Assembly: GCA_041659405.1 (NCBI GenBank)
Contig: JBAZYK010000004.1
Coordinates: 90,001-122,000, forward strand
Direction of reading: 5' to 3'
Source: Candidatus Altimarinota bacterium
Lineage (GTDB): Bacteria; Patescibacteriota; Gracilibacteria; UBA1369
DNA: 32,000 nucleotides
Below the pieces are notes generated by a model that was not told where the DNA came from, did not search any database, and saw only the letters and a list, made by a program, of their open reading frames with translations. Shown one piece after another: positions 9,158-31,885 of the stretch (position 1 is the first letter of the stretch; the number at the start of each line of letters is the position of its first letter). A program made the translations under genes and the position numbers.

Positions 9158-10066
9158 ATGGCTAATCAAACATCTTCACAGGCCCACTCCCTCCAGAAAA
9201 TCGGCATTATCACCAAAAGTAATATTGGTGAGCGCAAAAGCGATCTAAAAAAAATTGTCGCGATGCTGAAGAAATTTAAAAAAGAGGTTTTGCTGGATGT
9301 AAATTCCGCGCCGGTTTTAGGTGTAAAAAATGGCCACAGAAAGACCGAACTGCTTCAGGTTTGTGATCTTGTTTTGACCCTTGGCGGCGATGGAACTTTG
9401 CTCAGAGCTGCCCGATGTACAGCCAATAAACCGACCTTAATCCTTGGTGTGAATTTTGGAAATCTGGGATTTTTGACTGAATCAATACCTGAAAAACTTG
9501 AGCAGGATCTTAAAAAATTATTTGAAGGTCATTATTATATTGATGAACGTTTTCTTTTGCGCATCAATCATTATCGCAACGGTCAAAGAATTAATACCTT
9601 TTTAGCTCTAAATGATGCGGTAATTAACCAGGGAGCTTTTGCCAGACTGATTGAAATGCAGGTCGAAATTAACAAACAGCGCATGGTTACTTTTAAGGCC
9701 GATGGCTTGATCGTGAGCTCTCCGACCGGTTCAACGGGTCATGCCCTTTCTGCCGGAGGACCAATTGTTCATCCTTCTTTGCCCGCTTTTATTCTTACCC
9801 CAATCTGCCCCGCAACGCTTTCCGTACGCCCAATCGTCATTCCAAATGATCGCGAAATAAAAATAACTTTGACTACCCAAAGAAAAGAAAACCAAAATGT
9901 CGGTTTAACCTTGGACGGCCAAAAAACCATTCCGCTTCAATATGGAGACGAAATCAAAATCCGCCAATCCAAGCGCAAGTTTTTACTGATTCGCCTAAAA
10001 GGTGGCAGCAGCTATTACCGCATGCTCCGCAGCAAACTCCACTGGGGCGAGCATCATGGGGATTAA
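9158..10066 (+). CDS. nadK: NAD+ kinase
   Basis: 302 aa with the motifs GGDGTLL, NDAVI and SSPTGSTGHALSAGGPIV. Confidence 0.9.
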   Translation: MANQTSSQAHSLQKIGIITKSNIGERKSDLKKIVAMLKKFKKEVLLDVNSAPVLGVKNGHRKTELLQVCDLVLTLGGDGTLLRAARCTANKPTLILGVNFGNLGFLTESIPEKLEQDLKKLFEGHYYIDERFLLRINHYRNGQRINTFLALNDAVINQGAFARLIEMQVEINKQRMVTFKADGLIVSSPTGSTGHALSAGGPIVHPSLPAFILTPICPATLSVRPIVIPNDREIKITLTTQRKENQNVGLTLDGQKTIPLQYGDEIKIRQSKRKFLLIRLKGGSSYYRMLRSKLHWGEHHGD

Positions 10067-24700: not shown

Positions 24701-25126
24701 TTACTTCCAAACCTGATACCACTTCCTTTTTGGCTGTTCCAAGAGTTTAAATTGATTTTCCAAACTCAAAAAACGATCCTGAAACGCCTTCATAAAACGC
24801 ATAAAACTTTCTTTGTCCTTCTTGTTACCTTCCAGCAAACCTTCAACGTGCGCCTGCAATTTTTGAAGATCCTGCAAAGTTGCAACCTCGGCGGAAACGG
24901 CCTTTGACTCTTCCTTGATTGAGCGTTGTTCACGATCAAAAATCGAACTCTGGCCAAGTTTATAAAACTTAACAAGACTTTCCTGGGTAATCAAATAATT
25001 AAAACCCTGTGGAGTCCTTTTTTTCTTTGCCTGAAGCTTTTTGCCTTTCAAAGCACGACGAATGGTTTGTAGCGATTTACCACTTATCTTAGCGGCTTCT
25101 TGAAGCGTTAGCAGAGTTTCAGGCAT
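24701..25126 (-). CDS. Excisionase/MerR-type helix-turn-helix DNA-binding protein with coiled-coil C-terminus
   Basis: 141 aa. N-terminal LLTLQEAAKISGKSLQTIRRALKGKKL (HTH_17-like). The remainder is helical and charged. Confidence 0.6.
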   Translation of the reverse strand: MPETLLTLQEAAKISGKSLQTIRRALKGKKLQAKKKRTPQGFNYLITQESLVKFYKLGQSSIFDREQRSIKEESKAVSAEVATLQDLQKLQAHVEGLLEGNKKDKESFMRFMKAFQDRFLSLENQFKLLEQPKRKWYQVWK

Positions 25127-25255: not shown

Positions 25256-25336
25256 ACAAAGACCTTGTCTCCAAATTGTCACCGTATGGTGGCGTTTCCA
25301 TGATTTCCATGGAATAGGAGCGGGGTCGTTTTTTTA
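25256..25336 (+). ncRNA. Candidate ~80-nt small RNA or leader element with a three-way-junction fold and U-tract
   Basis: The outer helix pairs 25261-25272 (GACCTTGTCTCC) with 25317-25327 (GGAGCGGGGTC): 11 pairs including 3 G-U, with 1 bulge. It encloses hairpin GTCACC-GTAT-GGTGGC (25278-25293) and hairpin TTCCATG-ATTTC-CATGGAA (25296-25314). A run of 7 T follows at 25329-25335. I recognise no family. Confidence 0.35.
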
Positions 25337-25499
25337 TTTAAATTCCCAAATATCATCGATTAATTTGTTGATGATTTTTCTTTGTGTATTTTAAAACCTG
25401 CGTCCCCCGATTCATCTATAAAAACGATCATAGTATTTTCAATACGGTGAAAATTACTACTATCTTAGTGGTTTGGCTCTTTTGAAAACCGACTGGTGC

Positions 25500-25596
25500 A
25501 GGGCACGCAGTGATGCCTGACACCGCGTGCTCTGGAAAACATAATGCTAAAATCTGCGCCGCCTGAGGCGGGGGGCAGGTAGCACGGGGCGTTTTT
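25500..25596 (+). promoter_or_regulatory. GC-rich structured element with mutually exclusive pairings ending in a U-tract
   Basis: Stem alpha pairs 25500-25508 with 25525-25533. A GC hairpin spans 25554-25578. Segment 25581-25588 (AGCACGGG) can instead pair with 25523-25531, and TTTTT follows at 25592-25596. The 41 nt at 25549-25589 are absent from the homologous right-hand arm. Confidence 0.3.
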
Positions 25597-25715
25597 GGGT
25601 AAAAAAGCCTTGCATCTTTAAAAAGATATTGGTAGGATAACCCTCCTTATCATTAAGCGCCATTTATGTTAGAAATAAGAGACCAGATAAACTTAATTGA
25701 CGATAGCCATATAAC
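25591..25715 (+). repeat. Inverted repeat, left arm (promoter, leader, ATG and first 17 codons)
   Basis: My hand alignment to the reverse complement of 31446-31580 gives 8 substitutions plus one 7-nt indel. Positions 25606-25647 are identical. Weaker homology extends outward to about 25480. Confidence 0.85.
25610..25638 (+). promoter_or_regulatory. Putative promoter of the aspS operon (inside the left repeat arm)
   Basis: TTGCAT (25610-25615), a 17-nt spacer, then TAGGAT (25633-25638). It lies 27 nt upstream of the ATG at 25666. The sequence is identical in the right arm. Confidence 0.5.
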
Positions 25716-27009
25716 CAAACCAGTCGAGATTGATGACTTAAGCAAGAGGTCAGGGGAGACCGTGCAAATGGAAGGTGCTGTTCACAAGATTAGAAGCTTG
25801 GGGAATGTAGCTTTTATCGTTATTCGAACTATAAGGGATAAATTACAGGTTGTTCTGGATGGTGAATCCATGCAATTACTTTCCGGTTTGAAAGAAGGCG
25901 ATTTTGTAAAATTCAGTGGCGTTGTGGAAGAAAATCCTAAAGCATATAAAGGGCAGGAAGTTAGAGCAACAGCCATAGATAAGTTAAGTGGAGCAAAGGA
26001 TGTATTAGAAGTTAATCTTGGGGCAAAAGAGCTTCCAATGAATCTTGAAACAAAATTGGATCGTAGGATTTTAACATTAAGGCATTTGCGTGAAAGAGCG
26101 GTTTTCAAACTGCAGGAAGGAGTTGGTGTTGCTTTTCGAGAATATCTTTTGGATCAGAGATTTACCGAAATACATTCGCCCAAAATAGTTGCAGCAGGAG
26201 CTGAAGGAGGAGCCAATATATTTAAACTTGATTATTTTGGACGACCTGCTTTTCTTGCTCAAAGTCCTCAATTTTATAAACAATTTATGGTTCCTGTGTA
26301 TGGTAGAGTTTTTGAAGTGGGGCCAGTTTTCCGCGCGGAGAAACATGCGACTTCGCGTCATATTAACGAATACACATCATTAGATTTTGAAATGGGTTTT
26401 ATTGATTCTTTTAGAGATGTTATGTCGATGGAAGTTGGTTTTTTGAAATATCTTATAGGGGTTTTGGGGCAGAGGTATGGACATGAACTTGAATTGCTTG
26501 GCATAAAACTGCCGGATATTAGTAGTGTCCCAGCTATTAAATTCGCTGATGCTAAGGAACAAGTAGCAAAAAAATATAACAGAAAATACAGAGATCCTTA
26601 TGATTTAGAACCAGAAGAAGAAAGATTGATCGGAGACATGGTTAAGCAAGAAACAGGAAGTGATTTCGTATTTCTAACCCATTACCCTAAGGCCAAACGT
26701 CCATTTTACACTATGTCGTCTACTGAAGATCCAAATTATACCGAAAGTTTTGATCTGCTTTTCAAAGGATTAGAAATTACCACTGGTGGTCAACGAATTC
26801 ATGATTATGACACACAGGTAGAAGCCTTAAGAGCAAAAGGGTTAAATCCAGATGACTTTAAGGATTATCTTGAATTACACAAAAATGGCACTCCTCCTCA
26901 TGGTGGTTGTGGAATTGGACTTGAGAGGTTAACATTAAAACTTTTAGGAGGAACCAATGTTAGAGAAGCAACGCTCTTCCCAAGAGATTTGAATCGTCTT
27001 ACTCCTTAA
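25666..27009 (+). CDS. aspS: Aspartate--tRNA ligase, archaeal/eukaryal type (class IIb) with a short N-terminal appendage
   Basis: 447 aa. OB-fold N-domain, QSPQFYKQ, motif 2 FRAEKHATSRHINEYTSLDFEM and motif 3 PPHGGCGIGLERL. The first 17 residues are shared with the unrelated ORF at 30029-31498. Confidence 0.85.
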   Translation: MLEIRDQINLIDDSHITKPVEIDDLSKRSGETVQMEGAVHKIRSLGNVAFIVIRTIRDKLQVVLDGESMQLLSGLKEGDFVKFSGVVEENPKAYKGQEVRATAIDKLSGAKDVLEVNLGAKELPMNLETKLDRRILTLRHLRERAVFKLQEGVGVAFREYLLDQRFTEIHSPKIVAAGAEGGANIFKLDYFGRPAFLAQSPQFYKQFMVPVYGRVFEVGPVFRAEKHATSRHINEYTSLDFEMGFIDSFRDVMSMEVGFLKYLIGVLGQRYGHELELLGIKLPDISSVPAIKFADAKEQVAKKYNRKYRDPYDLEPEEERLIGDMVKQETGSDFVFLTHYPKAKRPFYTMSSTEDPNYTESFDLLFKGLEITTGGQRIHDYDTQVEALRAKGLNPDDFKDYLELHKNGTPPHGGCGIGLERLTLKLLGGTNVREATLFPRDLNRLTP

Positions 27010-27020
27010 AGTGTAAAATT

Positions 27021-27779
27021 ATGTATCGAGAAGGTATTGAAGTGAAAAGGGATACAAATGCTGGCATACTCCTCGAATACCCTTCTTGTCTCGAAGTTGT
27101 TGAGAAACTCTTTCCTGATAGTTGTGAAAGAATTTATTATCCGAATGACGAAGATTCTGTTGTTCATGTGAATCGTGAAGGAATAGATGTTGCATTCATT
27201 GCAGGACATGGGGCAAGTATCGCAGCGTGCATGGCAGAAAGACTGCGCGTATATGGGGCACAAGCATTAGTACGTATTGGAACGTGCGGTGCCCTTTCAA
27301 AAACAGTGCGCCTTTGGGAACCGATCATCACTACGGCATGTTTTAGCGACGAAGGTACTTCGAGACATTATCTTCCCGAAGGATTTCCTATTGTTTCAAA
27401 TCCAGCATTAAATCTGGCTCTTCGTGAGCATTTTGAAAAAAGCGGGATAACTCCGCAAGAAGGCATATCCATTACGACTGACGGAAGATGGCGGGAGGAT
27501 CCAGGGCTTTTTAAAAAGTTACATGAACTTGGGGTAGTTTCGGTTGAAATGGAAACTGCAGCCATTCTTGCTGTAGCGCAATATCGAAAACTATTTGGCG
27601 CTGCGATTAATATCGCGACAGATTTGCCAGCAGATGTAGAGAGTGAACATGATTTTAAGGGGATTCCTGATCGTGAAAACTATGACGAAAATTTTGATAA
27701 GAGCTTACGGATAATTATCCCGATAGTTATCGATACGCTTGTTGCCTTTCAGAGAGTTGTTTTAGCTTCTCATCTATGA
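27021..27779 (+). CDS. PNP/UDP-family (PNP_UDP_1) nucleoside phosphorylase or nucleosidase-like protein
   Basis: 252 aa with AGHGASIAACMAERL...ALVRIGTCGAL and VSVEMETAAILAVAQ, typical of the DeoD/Udp/MTAN fold. Substrate is unknown. It starts 11 nt after the aspS stop. Confidence 0.7.
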   Translation: MYREGIEVKRDTNAGILLEYPSCLEVVEKLFPDSCERIYYPNDEDSVVHVNREGIDVAFIAGHGASIAACMAERLRVYGAQALVRIGTCGALSKTVRLWEPIITTACFSDEGTSRHYLPEGFPIVSNPALNLALREHFEKSGITPQEGISITTDGRWREDPGLFKKLHELGVVSVEMETAAILAVAQYRKLFGAAINIATDLPADVESEHDFKGIPDRENYDENFDKSLRIIIPIVIDTLVAFQRVVLASHL

Positions 27780-28411
27780 AAAGAGAATGGAATAACATTT
27801 CTGATGATACTGAGACGATGGTATTTACAACCCCTTTGCCAGATGCGCGAATTTTATCGTTAGCGCCGCCTGAGTCTTCAAGTGTGCTTGATATAGGTTG
27901 TGGTTATGGTCGTGTCTTAAAACATATGTATGAAATGGGATATCGAGATCTTACTGGGATTGACGTTTCCGATGGACTTATATTAAGAGCTAAACAATTG
28001 TGTCCTGATGCCGTCTATCGCATTCAAGATATTGAGAGTATCCAACTTGAACAAAAATATGATCTGATTTTAATCATGGGAGTTATTGAATATATTTTGA
28101 GTGATGAAAATCAGAAAGAATTTTTTGGTAAAGTGAGTAGAGCTCTTCGCCCTAATGGACACGTATTATTAGAAACATTTGTTCTTGACCCTACAAATAT
28201 ATGTCAGTACATGGCTGGACTATTGAAAACAGGCCATTTGGGCAGATTTACGAATAACAGTAAGGGATTTGAGTGTCATCATCAATCTTATGCAGTTGTA
28301 GATAGACTTGTGTCTGAATTTTTTGAGGTAATAATCCGAACTCGCCAAAAATTTTTAACCTGGACTGGCTATGAATGTAACGGGTATTCACTTATTCTTC
28401 GGGCTAAATAA
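27776..28411 (+). CDS. Class I SAM-dependent methyltransferase
   Basis: 211 aa. Motif I VLDIGCGYGRV and an acidic post-I DLTGIDVS. An ATGA start/stop overlap joins it to the upstream gene. Confidence 0.75.
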   Translation: MKREWNNISDDTETMVFTTPLPDARILSLAPPESSSVLDIGCGYGRVLKHMYEMGYRDLTGIDVSDGLILRAKQLCPDAVYRIQDIESIQLEQKYDLILIMGVIEYILSDENQKEFFGKVSRALRPNGHVLLETFVLDPTNICQYMAGLLKTGHLGRFTNNSKGFECHHQSYAVVDRLVSEFFEVIIRTRQKFLTWTGYECNGYSLILRAK

Positions 28412-28416
28412 TTTTT

Positions 28417-28617
28417 GTGATATACTTTCAATATATGATATCTTCGCAACACAACTCTTCTCTACGCCAGCTAGAACGTCTAATGCAAGAAAAGGATGAG
28501 GAACTGACCCGTCTAGACAATCTTAAAAAAAATGAATTTAGAGATATGCGGCGATTATCTGAAATAGATATGACGATACAAGAAATAAGGCGTAAAATGA
28601 TGTTTCACCATGAATAA
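28417..28617 (+). CDS. Small hypothetical helical protein
   Basis: 66 aa from the GTG start, or 60 aa from the ATG at 28435. It is charged and coiled-coil-like. Its stop overlaps the HIT start by 8 nt, which is the main argument that it is translated. Confidence 0.35.
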   Translation: MIYFQYMISSQHNSSLRQLERLMQEKDEELTRLDNLKKNEFRDMRRLSEIDMTIQEIRRKMMFHHE

Positions 28618-29020
28618 ATGTGTTTTTTGCATTATTGCGCGACGCGAAAAATCTGCCAACATTGTGTGGGAAGATGATTATGTGATGGCTTTTTTGGATA
28701 TTGATCCTATTTCAGATGGTCACACCCTTGTGATTCCAAAAAATCATATTCGCGATGTAAGTGGGCTAGACGAAAAAACAGGCTCTCACGTGATGAGTGT
28801 TGCAAAAATTTTAGCATCCGTTATAGAAAAAACTTTTGGATTCGATGGTATCGAAATCAGAGCTGTAAGTGGACATTTCCAAGATGTTCCTCATTTTCAT
28901 TTGCACGTTTTTGGCAGAAATAAGATAAATGACATAAAGATTATATATCCTAAAGGAATCAATAACTCTCCCGAATATTTGGCTAAAAACGCTAAAAAAA
29001 TCAAGGATGAATTGAAGTAA
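28610..29020 (+). CDS. HIT-family nucleotide hydrolase (histidine triad)
   Basis: 136 aa. N-terminal CVFCII, DGHTLVIPK, and the histidine triad HFHLHVFG. Confidence 0.85.
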   Translation: MNKCVFCIIARREKSANIVWEDDYVMAFLDIDPISDGHTLVIPKNHIRDVSGLDEKTGSHVMSVAKILASVIEKTFGFDGIEIRAVSGHFQDVPHFHLHVFGRNKINDIKIIYPKGINNSPEYLAKNAKKIKDELK

Positions 29021-29027
29021 AATTTTA

Positions 29028-30026
29028 CTATACGATCTTTGGTAATTTCTTTCCATTCCTATAAGAGTCAACTAAATCTGTATAATCTGATTTTTTATTC
29101 CCCTGTTTACTTGGACTAAAAGCAGTTAGATATCTGTTTCCAGAATCTGGACATAAAACAACTAAATTTTTTCCAGTAAGCCCGTTATCGTCTACAAACT
29201 GTTTTGCCGCTGCCACTGCCAATCCGCTAGAGCCTCCAATGTAAATTCCAGTTTCAGTTATTAGATTTTCTATTTCCATCAATGCTAGTGCATCCCGTAC
29301 TTCCACTACATTTGCGAGAATATCCAAATTTAAGTTTTTAGGGATGAAATCTTCACCAACACCTTCTATTGCAGTTACCACGTTTCTACTCTCATTTATT
29401 CCATGAAATTTTGTGTAGTAAACTCCTGAATCTGGAGTTACTCCTACAACTTTCGTAGGAAGATCTTCATCTTTAAAATACTGTGCAACGCCGGAGGCCG
29501 TCCCTCCAGTTCCCATAGGACTAAATACATAATCTGCATTTGGAACATTGTTATGTATTTCAGGGCCGGTCGTTTTTTTATGAGCTTCTGGATTTAAAGG
29601 ATTATTAAATTGATCTATGAAAATCGAATCACGAGTATTTTGTGCAATGATTTCAGCGAAACCTCTAAAACCCAATGGGGATTCTGAATGTACGGATTCA
29701 TCCACCATAATCAATTCTATTCCGTATCTTTGTAAAAGCTTAACCTTATCAGGACTAGTTTTGGATGTTATTATTAGCACTAATCTAAATCCATAAATTT
29801 TTGAAGCCATAGCCAGTCCAATTGCCAAATTACCACTGCTATATTCAACTACTGTTCGTCCGCGTAAACCTATTTTTTTATCTAATGAATTACATACATG
29901 AAAAGCAACACGATCTTTTATAGACAAACCTGGATTCGCTCCTTCAAGTTTTAAATGTAGGCGATTGTCTTTATAAGGTATTTCAACGATTGGAGTATTA
30001 CCAACCAAATTTTCCGCATTACGCAT
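29028..30026 (-). CDS. Fold-type II PLP-dependent enzyme of the cysteine synthase/cystathionine beta-synthase (CysK/CysM) family
   Basis: 332 aa with GNTPIVEI, the PLP lysine context NPGLSIKDR, SSGNLAIGLA, GTGGTASG and GGSSG. The true substrate is unknown. Confidence 0.8.
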   Translation of the reverse strand: MRNAENLVGNTPIVEIPYKDNRLHLKLEGANPGLSIKDRVAFHVCNSLDKKIGLRGRTVVEYSSGNLAIGLAMASKIYGFRLVLIITSKTSPDKVKLLQRYGIELIMVDESVHSESPLGFRGFAEIIAQNTRDSIFIDQFNNPLNPEAHKKTTGPEIHNNVPNADYVFSPMGTGGTASGVAQYFKDEDLPTKVVGVTPDSGVYYTKFHGINESRNVVTAIEGVGEDFIPKNLNLDILANVVEVRDALALMEIENLITETGIYIGGSSGLAVAAAKQFVDDNGLTGKNLVVLCPDSGNRYLTAFSPSKQGNKKSDYTDLVDSYRNGKKLPKIV

Positions 30027-30028
30027 AG

Positions 30029-31498
30029 CTATTTTTTGTTAAAAAAACGTCTAAAAAGTAAAGAATCTGGGACTTCTAAGCGCGGTCCATCACAAACACG
30101 TTGATATATCCAGCCTAAACCATCAACAAATTGCGGAATTTCTCCATGAGAAGCTATCGTCGGAACCCTGCGTCCAAAATATTGTTCATACGGCATTACT
30201 CTATCGTCATCATTTAAATGATCTGCTGGCAAAGCAGAATAATCAACTCCCAATTTTGCACTCATTTTTTCCCTGTCACCAACAAAATTTAATGACTGAT
30301 CAGTATTTGAGCTATCAACTGTTTGATATCTACCCGAGTATCTCTGGTCAAGATATTCTGCAACTTTTGGATTGAAAGGCAGTTCTTTGGAGAAAAGTTG
30401 ACTTTCTGCAATAACGTCTTTCCCATATTTAGCTACAAGCTTGTCGTATAATGGATTTCCAAATAAATAACCTGGTGTATCAATTACTTGAGGCATTTCT
30501 CTAAGATACTCGTATCCTTTTAAATGCATTGCAGTACTTGCGAGTTTTATACGTTGACATTTGTCGCAATATCCACAATCAGAGGCATTTTCGCTATTCC
30601 AGCATGATACGCGAGATTCAAGTGCTGCAAGTCCGAATTTACGTCGTATGTATTCAAATACTGAATATGTGCTTAAGGTGGCAAGAGGGTAAGTAAAACT
30701 TACCGATGGTCCCAATAATGATTCCAAATACTTTTGATGCAATTCCATTGCCATCGGACTCTCATAAGGAGCTCTTCTTCGATTTGAATTAAATCCCAAA
30801 ACATCAAATGAATGACCAATTGCAATGTGTTGAGGAACTCTATCTTCGACGTTCCATAAAGATGCAAAGTATGTCATTGAAATATCAAATGGCTCATATC
30901 TACCATCAAGTCCATTCCTACAAACATCGTGCTCATAAGTAGAATAATCAGCATTATCAGTAGGGTTCTTCTTATCATAATCAATTTTGTAGTCGCGAAG
31001 ATCAAACCCGCATGCTTTTAATATTTCAGCTGATACAAAAGAGTCTCTTCCTCCGCTATTTCCAATTACAATTTGATTTGGAACAGCAGTGACCGGGTCT
31101 GGATGTAATTCCGTCAATGTCCTCGCGGTCACAAGTGGTGGACGAGCATCATCCAGCGAACCAATGACCCCCGAACTGAGACGGCCGATAAATTCAAAAG
31201 ATCTAGGATCTAAATCAAAATCTAAATTGATTATCATGGATTGACGAAATTTGCCAATCATCGCGGCAATAAGTGCAGATTTTATTATTTCAAGACCAAC
31301 CTCTGTTGGCTTCTCTTTTGCAGTAAATCCAATTACCGATAAAATTTTACTTTGTATATCACTAGCTCTAAGTACAGCGGAATTTTGTGCGTGTTCAAAT
31401 TCGCAATTAATTATTGCATCTGAACTGACTTCACTACCTTGTTTATTGGTTATACGATTATCGTCGATTAAGTTTACCTGGTCTCTTATTTCTAACAT
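30029..31498 (-). CDS. PP-loop (N-type ATP pyrophosphatase) protein, QueC/ExsB-like core with N- and C-terminal extensions
   Basis: 489 aa. SGGRDS is at residues 148-153. SCWNSENASDCGYCDKC gives C-x8-C-x2-C-x2-C (residues 299-314), the spacing I recall for the QueC zinc site. About 145 aa N-terminal and 160 aa C-terminal have no recognised similarity. The stop lies 2 nt before the CysK-like start. Confidence 0.7.
   Translation of the reverse strand: MLEIRDQVNLIDDNRITNKQGSEVSSDAIINCEFEHAQNSAVLRASDIQSKILSVIGFTAKEKPTEVGLEIIKSALIAAMIGKFRQSMIINLDFDLDPRSFEFIGRLSSGVIGSLDDARPPLVTARTLTELHPDPVTAVPNQIVIGNSGGRDSFVSAEILKACGFDLRDYKIDYDKKNPTDNADYSTYEHDVCRNGLDGRYEPFDISMTYFASLWNVEDRVPQHIAIGHSFDVLGFNSNRRRAPYESPMAMELHQKYLESLLGPSVSFTYPLATLSTYSVFEYIRRKFGLAALESRVSCWNSENASDCGYCDKCQRIKLASTAMHLKGYEYLREMPQVIDTPGYLFGNPLYDKLVAKYGKDVIAESQLFSKELPFNPKVAEYLDQRYSGRYQTVDSSNTDQSLNFVGDREKMSAKLGVDYSALPADHLNDDDRVMPYEQYFGRRVPTIASHGEIPQFVDGLGWIYQRVCDGPRLEVPDSLLFRRFFNKK
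30557..30604 (-). other. Cys4 motif C-x8-C-x2-C-x2-C
   Basis: Residues 299-314, CWNSENASDCGYCDKC. Coordinates come from frame arithmetic. Confidence 0.7.
31040..31057 (-). other. PP-loop motif SGGRDS
   Basis: The codons AGC GGA GGA AGA GAC TCT are read on the minus strand in the frame of ORF 30029-31498. Confidence 0.8.
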
Positions 31499-31580
31499 AA
31501 ATGGCGCTTGGCGCTTAATGATGAGGAGGGTTATCCTACCAATATCTTTTTAAAGATGCAAGGCTCTTTTACACAAAAAC
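31446..31580 (-). repeat. Inverted repeat, right arm (promoter, leader, ATG and first 17 codons)
   Basis: Its reverse complement aligns to 25591-25715. It carries a 7-nt tandem duplication (AAGCGCC AAGCGCC) in the leader. Distal homology blocks lie at 31581-31602 and 31830-31860, separated by a 227-nt arm-specific insert. Confidence 0.85.
31533..31561 (-). promoter_or_regulatory. Putative promoter of the QueC-like/CysK-like operon (inside the right repeat arm)
   Basis: Read on the minus strand: TTGCAT (31561-31556), a 17-nt spacer, then TAGGAT (31538-31533). It is identical to the left-arm promoter. Confidence 0.5.
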
Positions 31581-31856
31581 GGGATCATACGTTTTCCACA
31601 GATCAGTAGTTTTTTATTATGCGAACAAAAGTACACAACAACACAATTCTGGAAGGATTTAGCAAAATTCATTTTGGCTTGCAGGTGCGGACTTTTGACC
31701 ATTTTCGCCTTCACTGGAAGGAATTCCCCACAATTTTTAGCACTCGTTAGTGTGCATTTACAAAGAAATTTTCCCGAGTTTTGATTTGAAATTATTTCAA
31801 AGAAAAAAGCGTATGACCCCAAAAATATCCTGCGCTGCCTGCACCAGTTGGTTCTC

Positions 31857-31885
31857 AAAAAAAACCTCTGTAGGTTAGCCTACAG
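31857..31885 (-). terminator. Intrinsic terminator downstream of the tRNA gene
   Basis: The 7-bp stem CTGTAGG/CCTACAG (31868-31885) has a 4-nt loop. On the minus strand it is followed, after 3 nt, by a run of 8 T (31857-31864). Confidence 0.55.

What the first reader, a model, noticed from the sequence alone, without database searches (positions are those of the whole stretch)
25666..25719. An aminoacyl-tRNA synthetase and a PP-loop ATPase share the same 17-residue N-terminal peptide
The AspRS begins MLEIRDQINLIDDSHITK. The QueC-like protein (start 31498, minus strand) begins MLEIRDQVNLIDDNRITN. After that point the two proteins are unrelated.

In the AspRS, the peptide precedes the point where the OB-fold anticodon-binding domain appears to begin (around residue 30). 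It therefore looks like an appendage rather than part of the conserved fold.

Four explanations seem possible:
- a common docking, targeting or degradation tag that couples the two enzymes;
- a translation-initiation region (A-rich and probably unstructured) reused in an organism that lacks Shine-Dalgarno sequences;
- a regulatory nascent peptide;
- a neutral by-product of the promoter duplication.

The amino-acid differences (I/V, S/N, H/R, K/N) are mostly conservative, but the sample is far too small to infer selection.
Basis: partly seen in the sequence, partly recalled or inferred. Interest (0 to 1): 0.7.

Follow-up and report, generated by a model that had tools for sequence, protein, structure and literature searches.

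The report
AspRS promoter-and-start copied onto neighbouring gene
A roughly 130-base piece holding the promoter, short leader and first 17 codons of an aspartyl-tRNA synthetase gene was copied in reverse orientation onto the front of a nearby, functionally linked ATPase gene, so the shared "peptide" is most likely a passenger of promoter capture and not a new tag.

Summary
Window 25590-25718 (+) and 31446-31581 (-) form a 92-96% identical inverted repeat, the only repeat of 28 nt or more in the 32 kb.

It covers three things:
- a conserved promoter-like block (TTGCAT-N17-TGG-TAGGAT);
- a roughly 21-nt leader without a Shine-Dalgarno sequence;
- the ATG plus 17 2/3 codons of both the archaeal-type non-discriminating AspRS and a divergent QueC-like PP-loop ATPase.

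AspRS is the donor. Its three closest orthologues (80-88% identical) carry a homologous N-terminus (xEIxxQxxLIDDxxxxKP) and the same promoter block. All 15 PP-loop orthologues lack the peptide, and the closest has its own promoter. The junction lies about one codon from where the native PP-loop ATG would be, and no other in-frame start exists before codon 80.

All seven polarisable substitutions fell on the PP-loop copy, and most in the peptide change an amino acid. No related locus has the duplication. The leader RNA is unstructured.

Best reading: a recent, lineage-specific promoter and 5'-end capture gave the PP-loop/PALP operon the expression signals of the AspRS operon. The two operons belong to one conserved gene neighbourhood (AspRS, HIT, PP-loop, CysK-like enzyme) seen in 6 of 6 Peribacteria-type loci and, distantly, in Elizabethkingia. 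A functional shared tag is not excluded but is disfavoured.

The parts
25590..25718 (+). Left (donor, native) copy of the duplicated unit: promoter-like block, about 21-nt 5' UTR, ATG and 17 2/3 codons of AspRS
   Evidence: Inverted-repeat arms I1/I2; alignments. The same block and N-terminus are present upstream of the AspRS orthologues in L008/L011, L014 and L003.
31446..31581 (-). Right (derived) copy of the unit, fused in frame to the PP-loop gene. It contains a 7-nt tandem duplication AAGCGCC (31503-31516).
   Evidence: The PP-loop orthologues lack this segment.
25610..25638 (+). Putative sigma-70-type promoter: TTGCAT (25610-25615), 17-nt spacer ending in TGG, TAGGAT (25633-25638). A 14-nt perfect palindrome ATCTTTAAAAAGAT lies at 25614-25627.
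   Evidence: Read from the sequence. TTGCAT and the ..TGG-TAnnAT pattern are conserved in the AspRS orthologue loci. It scores below the threshold of the consensus scan, so this is an inferred promoter, not a shown one.
31533..31561 (-). The same promoter-like block in the PP-loop copy (TTGCAT 31561-31556; TAGGAT 31538-31533)
   Evidence: Exact 36-nt match.
25666..25719 (+). First 18 codons of AspRS (MLEIRDQINLIDDSHITK). Homology with the other copy ends after nt 25718.
31445..31498 (-). First 18 codons of the PP-loop protein (MLEIRDQVNLIDDNRITN)
25666..27009 (+). Archaeal-type non-discriminating aspartyl-tRNA synthetase, 447 aa
   Evidence: NCBIfam NF003483 532 bits (cut-off 353); Pfam PF00152 and PF01336; PDB 1N9W E 1.5e-107.
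27021..29020 (+). Rest of the AspRS operon: PNP_UDP_1 nucleosidase/phosphorylase-like (27021-27779), SAM methyltransferase (27776-28411), 66-aa ORF (28417-28617), HIT hydrolase (28610-29020)
29028..30026 (-). CysK/SbnA-like fold-type II PLP enzyme (PALP), second gene of the PP-loop operon
   Evidence: PF00291 207 bits; below the cut-offs of all NCBIfam equivalogs.
30029..31498 (-). Divergent PP-loop ATPase, 489 aa, with an SGGRDS motif (residues 148-153) and a QueC-like Cys cluster (C299, C308, C311, C314). It belongs to a rare unnamed family.
25480..25510 (+). Weak third repeat arm (partner 31830-31860, 84%). It covers the 5' flank and 5' half of hairpin 1 of a conserved structured element upstream of the AspRS promoter. 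This suggests the original duplication spanned about 25480-25718.

Best explanation
This is a recent, lineage-specific inverted segmental duplication. It copied the 5' expression unit of the AspRS gene (promoter-like block, about 21-nt SD-less leader, ATG and 17 2/3 codons) onto the 5' end of the PP-loop ATPase gene, and it replaced that gene's own promoter and start codon.

Shown:
- The direction of transfer is AspRS to PP-loop.
- The junction is in frame and lies at about codon 1-2 of the native PP-loop protein.
- The PP-loop protein has no other usable start, so it must be made with the foreign 17 residues.

Inferred:
- The event was kept because it gives the PP-loop/PALP operon the same transcription and SD-independent translation-initiation signals as the AspRS operon, to which it is functionally linked. 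In this lineage the two operons are convergent, whereas most relatives have them divergent from one shared intergenic region.
- The 17 residues are a tolerated passenger on an N-terminus that varies in length among orthologues. They are not a shared functional tag.
For: Donor polarity:
- AspRS orthologues at 88, 82 and 80% identity start MPEIKEQFSLIDDSHLAKP, MPEIKDQISLIDDHSLQKP and M(ILFM)EEITGKMDLIDDCSLTKP.
- Their upstream DNA shares GCCTTGCAT..TGG-TAnnAT.
- All 15 PP-loop orthologues have a gap where the peptide sits, and the closest one (L003) has an unrelated upstream region.

Junction and start codon:
- Homology ends at 25718.
- By alignment with P0002, the native ATG would lie about one codon upstream of the junction.
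- In the PP-loop gene the only in-frame ATG/GTG/TTG codons are at codon 1 and then codon 80.

Recency and uniqueness:
- The two copies are 92-96% identical.
- No repeat of 30 nt or more exists in seven related loci.

Asymmetric decay:
- Seven of eight substitutions can be polarised, and all seven are derived in the PP-loop copy. A tandem 7-nt duplication also lies in the PP-loop copy.
- In the peptide this gives 3 amino-acid changes (4 nt) against 1 synonymous change.

Initiation region:
- 0 of 21 genes has an SD-like motif.
- The AspRS region from -20 to +54 is the least structured (-2.5 kcal/mol) and the most A-rich (0.48) of the 21 genes.
- The 81-nt leader has an MFE of -2.7 kcal/mol, z +1.09, and no Rfam family matches it.

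Functional link between the operons:
- AspRS, HIT, PP-loop and PALP are adjacent in 6 of 6 distinct PP-loop loci, and AspRS is divergent from PP-loop-PALP in four of them.
- A distant PP-loop homologue in Elizabethkingia anophelis again sits with an archaeal-type AspRS (46% identical), a methyltransferase and a CysK-like enzyme.

Structure prediction:
- AF2 gives residues 1-25 of the PP-loop protein a pLDDT below 50.
- Native N-terminal tails of the orthologues vary by about 14 residues.
Against: - This is a single event, so selection for co-expression cannot be separated from neutral fixation.
- The promoter is inferred from conservation only and scores poorly against the E. coli consensus. 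No transcript or protein data exist.
- The duplicated piece is longer than a ribosome footprint, so 'needed for initiation' does not explain all 17 codons.
- The low pLDDT of the peptide in the PP-loop model is expected anyway, because the alignment has gaps there.
- 14 of 17 residues are still identical, which is also what a young functional tag would show.
Confidence: 0.75

Rival explanations
1. The shared 17 residues are a functional module (a docking, co-assembly or degradation tag) that physically or kinetically couples AspRS and the PP-loop enzyme. The duplication was selected for the peptide itself.
For: - The two enzymes are genuinely linked by gene neighbourhood in 6 of 6 loci.
- The LIDD core is conserved in the closest AspRS orthologues and retained in the PP-loop copy.
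- AF2 gives AspRS residues 11-20 a pLDDT of about 85, so the segment can adopt a defined conformation.
Against: - No other locus with the same gene set shares N-termini.
- The AspRS in L004 has no extension (MERTMIGNL...) and the one in L006 has an unrelated extension, yet both keep the neighbourhood.
- The changes since the duplication are mostly non-synonymous and all lie in the PP-loop copy.
- Within AspRS the peptide evolves faster than the rest of the protein: about 59% against 88% identity to P0021.
- The peptide is predicted to be disordered on the PP-loop protein.
Confidence: 0.08
2. The repeat is a cis-regulatory RNA or nascent-peptide sensor, for example one that senses Asp/Asn-tRNA charging through the early Asp/Asn codons. 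It is kept identical in both operons by gene conversion.
For: - The peptide holds Asp codons at positions 6, 12 and 13 and an Asn codon at 9.
- The homology has sharp boundaries, and the promoter half (96%) is better conserved than the coding half (92%).
- aaRS genes are often regulated through their leaders (general knowledge).
Against: - No Rfam family matches the leader, even at E up to 5.
- The leader is less structured than its shuffles.
- The 5' UTR is only about 21 nt if the promoter assignment is right.
- There is no separate leader ORF; the peptide is continuous with both enzymes.
- The changes are one-sided, which argues against ongoing homogenisation.
Confidence: 0.06
3. The inverted repeats are the ends of an invertible or mobile 5.9-kb cassette (a phase-variation or shufflon-like switch, or a transposon).
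For: - Repeats of 130 nt in inverted orientation flank the whole 7-gene cluster.
- An HTH_17 (excisionase-type) protein is encoded next to it at 24701-25126.
- Homologous recombination between the arms could flip the segment.
Against: - Both arms carry a promoter and an ATG, so inversion would change nothing in expression.
- No recombinase or transposase lies within 7 kb (upstream of AspRS) to 10 kb either side.
- The left arm sits in its ancestral context: the conserved hairpin element and the PBP-AspRS synteny are shared with L008, L014 and L012.
- The genes inside are in different arrangements in relatives that have no repeats.
Confidence: 0.04
4. Assembly artefact: a chimeric join in a metagenome contig.
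For: The source is a metagenome-assembled contig, and inverted repeats can arise from mis-joins.
Against: - The copies differ at 8 positions plus a 7-nt indel.
- Both junctions are in frame.
- The same fused protein is recorded in independent NCBI, JGI and ENA records, on contigs up to 128,851 bp.
Confidence: 0.03

Closest known systems
Promoter capture / partial-gene duplication that creates a chimeric 5' end (for example the experimentally evolved fadA-fwsR fusions of Pseudomonas fluorescens, Farr & Rainey, bioRxiv 10.1101/091744)
   Same: A rearrangement places one gene behind the promoter and first codons of another, which yields an in-frame N-terminal fusion and new regulation.
   Different: - Here the event is an inverted duplication, so the donor stays intact. 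The P. fluorescens events are deletions between neighbouring genes.
- The transferred piece is only 17 codons, with no recognisable domain.
- Donor and recipient already belong to one conserved gene neighbourhood.
Thermus thermophilus AspRS2 (PDB 1N9W), an archaeal-type non-discriminating AspRS
   Same: Same fold and family: E 1.5e-107, aligned over query residues 22-447. NCBIfam NF003483 is met.
   Different: The window enzyme has 17 extra N-terminal residues. They are conserved only among its closest relatives.
QueC (7-cyano-7-deazaguanine synthase; PDB 3BL5)
   Same: - PP-loop SGGxDS motif.
- C-x8-C-x2-C-x2-C cluster.
- Foldseek probability 0.99 and target-normalised TM 0.54 for the central domain.
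   Different: - The Pfam score is below gathering (19.9 against 22).
- The protein is about 260 residues longer, with an extra N-terminal alpha/beta domain (weakly uS11-like) and a C-terminal domain.
- The family has only 42 representatives among 1.84 billion proteins.
- It is always next to AspRS and a CysK-like enzyme, not next to queuosine genes.
DNA-inversion switches with repeats inside coding 5' ends (Mu Gin/G segment, shufflons, hsdS switching; from general knowledge)
   Same: Inverted repeats that include the start of coding sequences and flank a gene segment.
   Different: There is no recombinase, and both arms carry a full promoter and ATG, so no alternative expression state exists.

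Membership tests
Promoter / 5'-end capture by partial gene duplication | Orthologues of the donor gene carry the shared segment | tested here: met
   AspRS orthologues P0021, P0022 and P0023 share the N-terminus and promoter block.
Promoter / 5'-end capture by partial gene duplication | Orthologues of the recipient gene lack the segment and have their own 5' end | tested here: met
   15 of 15 PP-loop orthologues have a gap there. The L003 upstream region is unrelated.
Promoter / 5'-end capture by partial gene duplication | In-frame junction and dependence of the recipient on the captured start | tested here: met
   The ORF is continuous, and the next in-frame start is codon 80, beyond the invariant residues T65-K73.
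Promoter / 5'-end capture by partial gene duplication | The captured segment actually drives transcription and translation | not testable with these tools
   This needs 5'-RACE or metatranscriptome data and N-terminal proteomics.
Archaeal-type non-discriminating AspRS (NF003483) | Class IIb catalytic core plus OB-fold anticodon-binding domain, scoring above the equivalog cut-off | tested here: met
   532 bits against a cut-off of 353; PF00152 and PF01336.
Archaeal-type non-discriminating AspRS (NF003483) | Charges both tRNA-Asp and tRNA-Asn | not testable with these tools
   This is a biochemical property.
QueC (PF06508) | Pfam gathering score reached | tested here: not met
   19.9 bits against 22, and only residues 265-316 match. 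There is no NCBIfam hit.
QueC (PF06508) | PP-loop SGGxDS motif and four-Cys zinc cluster | tested here: met
   SGGRDS at residues 148-153; C299, C308, C311 and C314 are invariant in 16 sequences. That this spacing equals the spacing in QueC is from memory.
QueC (PF06508) | Fold similarity over the whole protein | tested here: inconclusive
   3BL5: E 7.9e-3, probability 0.99, TM 0.54 normalised to the target and 0.24 normalised to the query.
Site-specific DNA inversion switch | Recombinase gene nearby, and only one orientation expressed | tested here: not met
   There is no recombinase in about 7-10 kb of flank on either side. Both arms carry a promoter and an ATG.
Riboswitch / T-box / other curated leader RNA | Match to an Rfam model, or a stable conserved fold in the leader | tested here: not met
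   No hit overlaps 25590-25725. MFE -2.7 kcal/mol, z +1.09.

The most novel reading that the evidence does not exclude
The duplicated unit may be a selected coupling device and not a passenger. Identical promoter, initiation region and nascent N-terminus would synchronise, and possibly dock through the LIDD-containing peptide, AspRS and the PP-loop enzyme. Both would belong to an uncharacterised Asp-tRNA- or Asp-AMP-dependent pathway whose core (archaeal-type AspRS, methyltransferase, CysK-like PLP enzyme, rare QueC-like PP-loop ATPase, plus or minus HIT) is conserved from Peribacteria to Elizabethkingia. That pathway could be a tRNA-linked amino-acid conversion, or production of and immunity to an AspRS-directed antimetabolite.
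Probability: 0.1. Interest if true: 0.7.

Novelty: new member of a known kind. Interest (0 to 1): 0.35.

Why it matters
The finding is a clean natural example of how a bacterium without Shine-Dalgarno sequences can rewire expression. It copied a whole promoter-plus-initiation-region unit, including early codons, from one gene to a functionally linked one, and tolerated a foreign N-terminal tail. That is useful for annotating chimeric N-termini, but mechanistically it is ordinary.

The more valuable by-product is the context. The event marks two convergent operons as one unit. It also draws attention to a rare, unnamed PP-loop ATPase family that is always found next to an archaeal-type AspRS and a CysK-like enzyme, across two phyla. 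The biochemistry of that family is unknown.

Tried and rejected
- **Third copies of the unit.** Exact scans of genome contigs with the 29-nt promoter block and of metagenome contigs with the 21-nt coding start both gave 0 hits. The source MAG is evidently not in those collections, so other genes with this unit in the same genome could not be checked.
- **Regulatory RNA.** Rfam at gathering and at E up to 5 found nothing on the shared leader. Folding shows no structure.
- **Defence-system reading.** PADLOC gave only generic domain hits: HTH to mad1, methyltransferase to mad2, HIT to ThsC, and QueC at E 1.3e-3. I rejected this reading.
- **Code-25 recoding (Gracilibacteria).** The ORFs are uninterrupted under table 11, and the relatives are Peribacteria. 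There is no evidence of recoding.
- **Simple inversion with staggered breaks as the origin.** I rejected this because the conserved upstream hairpin element and the PBP-AspRS synteny stay with the left (AspRS) copy.
- **Homology of the 250-nt unique stretch upstream of the PP-loop copy (31582-31829).** Its similarity to the native PP-loop or AspRS upstream regions of relatives is not above shuffles.
- **Literature.** Searches for this gene cluster found nothing specific.
Full report
**1. Observation**

The AspRS ORF (25666-27009 +, 447 aa) and the PP-loop ORF (30029-31498 -, 489 aa) begin MLEIRDQINLIDDSHITK and MLEIRDQVNLIDDNRITN.

The identity is a DNA-level inverted repeat that extends well upstream of the ATG:
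- arms 25590-25662 / 31509-31581: 73 nt, 96%;
- arms 25655-25718 / 31446-31509: 64 nt, 92%;
- the two pairs are offset by a 7-nt tandem duplication (AAGCGCC) in the PP-loop copy;
- a weaker arm lies further upstream: 25480-25510 / 31830-31860, 84%.

The shared 21-mer and 36-mer occur exactly twice, against 0 expected. This is the only repeat of 28 nt or more in the 32-kb window. The fused protein is on record from NCBI, JGI and ENA contigs. With the sequence differences between the copies, that makes an assembly artefact unlikely.

**2. Anatomy of the unit**

Upstream of each ATG lies TTGCAT (25610-25615), a 17-nt spacer ending in TGG, then TAGGAT (25633-25638). After that come about 21 nt (28 nt in the PP-loop copy) with no Shine-Dalgarno motif.

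The block is below the threshold of the E. coli-consensus scan. However, TTGCAT and the TGG-TAnnAT pattern are conserved upstream of the AspRS orthologues. I therefore treat it as an inferred promoter.

None of 21 genes in the window has an SD-like motif. The AspRS region from -20 to +54 is the least structured (-2.5 kcal/mol) and the most A-rich (0.48) of them. The 81-nt leader folds no better than shuffles (MFE -2.7 kcal/mol, z +1.09). No Rfam family matches it.

**3. Who is the donor**

The evidence points to AspRS:
- NCBIfam places the enzyme in the archaeal-type non-discriminating AspRS family: NF003483, 532 bits against a cut-off of 353.
- The best solved relative, T. thermophilus AspRS2 (1N9W), aligns from query residue 22 to chain residue 5. 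The first 17 residues are therefore an extension.
- The extension is native to this AspRS lineage. The three closest orthologues (88, 82 and 80% identical) start MPEIKEQFSLIDDSHLAKP, MPEIKDQISLIDDHSLQKP and M(ILFM)EEITGKMDLIDDCSLTKP, and they have the same promoter block.
- More distant relatives have extensions of similar length but different sequence.
- AF2 gives AspRS residues 1-10 a pLDDT of 67 and residues 11-20 a pLDDT of 85.
- In contrast, all 15 full-length orthologues of the PP-loop protein (44-65% identical) have a gap where the peptide sits. The closest one (L003) has an unrelated upstream region with its own TGGTATAAT element.

Homology ends after nt 25718, the second base of codon 18. 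By alignment with P0002, the native PP-loop ATG would lie about one codon upstream of the junction.

In the PP-loop gene the only in-frame ATG/GTG/TTG codons in the first 120 are codon 1 and codon 80 (then 88). Codon 80 lies beyond invariant residues T65-K73. The protein must therefore be made from the captured start.

**4. Age and selection**

No related locus (L003, L015, L006, L016, L017, L012, L008) has any repeat of 30 nt or more that links the two genes.

I polarised the differences with L008, L014 and L003. Seven of eight substitutions can be polarised, and all seven are derived in the PP-loop copy: positions 25605, 25648, 25687, 25698 and 25706/7/9. For codons 14-15 this rests on L008 only. 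The tandem 7-nt duplication also lies in the PP-loop copy.

In the peptide the changes are I8V, S14N and H15R (4 nt) against one synonymous change. The AspRS copy is therefore conserved and the PP-loop copy drifts. That is the opposite of what a tag required in both proteins would show.

AF2 predicts residues 1-25 of the PP-loop protein as disordered, with pLDDT below 50. This is weak evidence, because the alignment is gapped there.

**5. Why these two genes**

The PP-loop protein has SGGRDS and an invariant C-x8-C-x2-C-x2-C cluster. Other comparisons place it only loosely:
- It scores below Pfam's QueC threshold: 19.9 bits against 22.
- Against PDB sequences it matches only through the PP-loop motif (MnmA, TtuA, Cap9).
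- By fold, its centre resembles QueC 3BL5, and its N-domain is weakly uS11-like.
- The family is tiny: 19 clusters among 5.8 billion proteins, and 42 representatives among 1.84 billion.

In all six distinct loci with enough flank, AspRS, HIT, PP-loop and a CysK/SbnA-like PLP enzyme are adjacent. These loci are the window, L003, L004/5/15, L006/7, L016 and L017; the named MAGs are 'Candidatus Peribacteria'. In four of them AspRS is divergently transcribed from PP-loop-PALP across one short intergenic region. Even an AspRS of a different lineage, without the extension, keeps the adjacency (L004: 39% identical, MERTMIGNL...).

A distant family member in Elizabethkingia anophelis (27% identical) lies in a low-GC cluster. 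That cluster holds an archaeal-type AspRS (46% identical, NF003483 483 bits), a methyltransferase, a CysK-like enzyme, a serine O-acetyltransferase, a GNAT, a LuxR-type regulator and an MFS transporter.

The two operons of the window thus belong to one functional unit of unknown chemistry. The window and L003 have the unusual convergent layout, in which a shared intergenic control region is no longer possible.

**6. Best explanation and rivals**

The most economical reading is promoter and 5'-end capture. An inverted duplication copied the AspRS expression unit and replaced the PP-loop gene's own 5' end. The original copy may have spanned about 25480-25718, judging from the third arm. The event restored or imposed the same expression signals on both halves of the unit.

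The extra codons may have come along simply because of where the breakpoints fell. In an SD-less organism an A-rich, unstructured early coding region may also be part of what makes the unit work. Both points are inference.

The rivals are listed with their evidence in the rival explanations: a functional tag, a nascent-peptide or RNA sensor kept by gene conversion, an invertible cassette, and an assembly artefact. None is excluded outright. Each is contradicted by at least one test made here.

**7. Novelty**

Chimeric 5' ends created by promoter capture are a known kind of event, for example the fadA-fwsR fusions (bioRxiv 10.1101/091744). This is a new natural instance with a clear polarity.

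The uncharacterised AspRS/PP-loop/CysK-like neighbourhood is the more interesting lead. It lies outside the finding as it was stated.

Noticed in passing
window 25261-25331 (+): A DUF3800-IX RNA (Rfam RF02968), 62.6 bits against a gathering score of 36.8. It lies between the HTH_17 gene and AspRS, and no DUF3800 gene was seen nearby.
   Followed up: no
window ~25505-25595 (+); L014 ~88-170; L008 ~9835-9915: A conserved GC-rich two-hairpin element lies immediately upstream of the AspRS promoter block. The second hairpin is followed by a T-run and looks like a terminator. RNAalifold on three sequences gives 25 pairs, 9 of them with compensatory double changes. There is no Rfam match. Only its 5' flank and half of hairpin 1 were copied to the PP-loop side.
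   Followed up: partly
window 25666-31498; L003, L004/5/15, L006/7, L016, L017; L018 1855-11441: An archaeal-type AspRS, a HIT hydrolase, a rare unnamed QueC-like PP-loop ATPase and a CysK/SbnA-like PLP enzyme, often with a SAM methyltransferase and sometimes a PNP_UDP_1 protein, form a conserved neighbourhood in 6 of 6 Peribacteria-type loci. A distant version in Elizabethkingia anophelis adds a serine acetyltransferase, a GNAT, an MFS transporter and a LuxR-type regulator, and looks like a biosynthetic cluster. The function is unknown.
   Followed up: partly
window 30029-31498 (-), protein residues 29-130: In the AF2 model the N-terminal alpha/beta domain of the PP-loop protein gives weak Foldseek matches to ribosomal protein uS11 (E about 1e-3, target-normalised TM 0.4-0.5). 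This may hint at RNA binding.
   Followed up: no
window 25614-25627 and 31544-31557: A perfect 14-nt palindrome, ATCTTTAAAAAGAT, lies in the spacer of the putative promoter in both copies. It is not conserved in L008, L003 or L014.
   Followed up: no
L008 11356-12104, L009, L010 (against L011 2999-3748): The PNP_UDP_1 gene downstream of the closest AspRS orthologue is split into two overlapping pieces, apparently by a frameshift, in three contigs. It is intact in a fourth.
   Followed up: no
window 24701-25126 (-): A 141-aa HTH_17 protein next to the cluster matches the PADLOC model mad1 (E 2e-8), and the cluster's methyltransferase matches mad2 (E 5e-17). These are probably domain-level resemblances only.
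   Followed up: no
whole window; L004 8430-8470: Stop codon use is TAA 13, TAG 8 and TGA 1, and no gene has an SD-like motif. The higher-GC relative L004 does have AAGGAG before its AspRS ATG, so SD use differs within the group.
   Followed up: no
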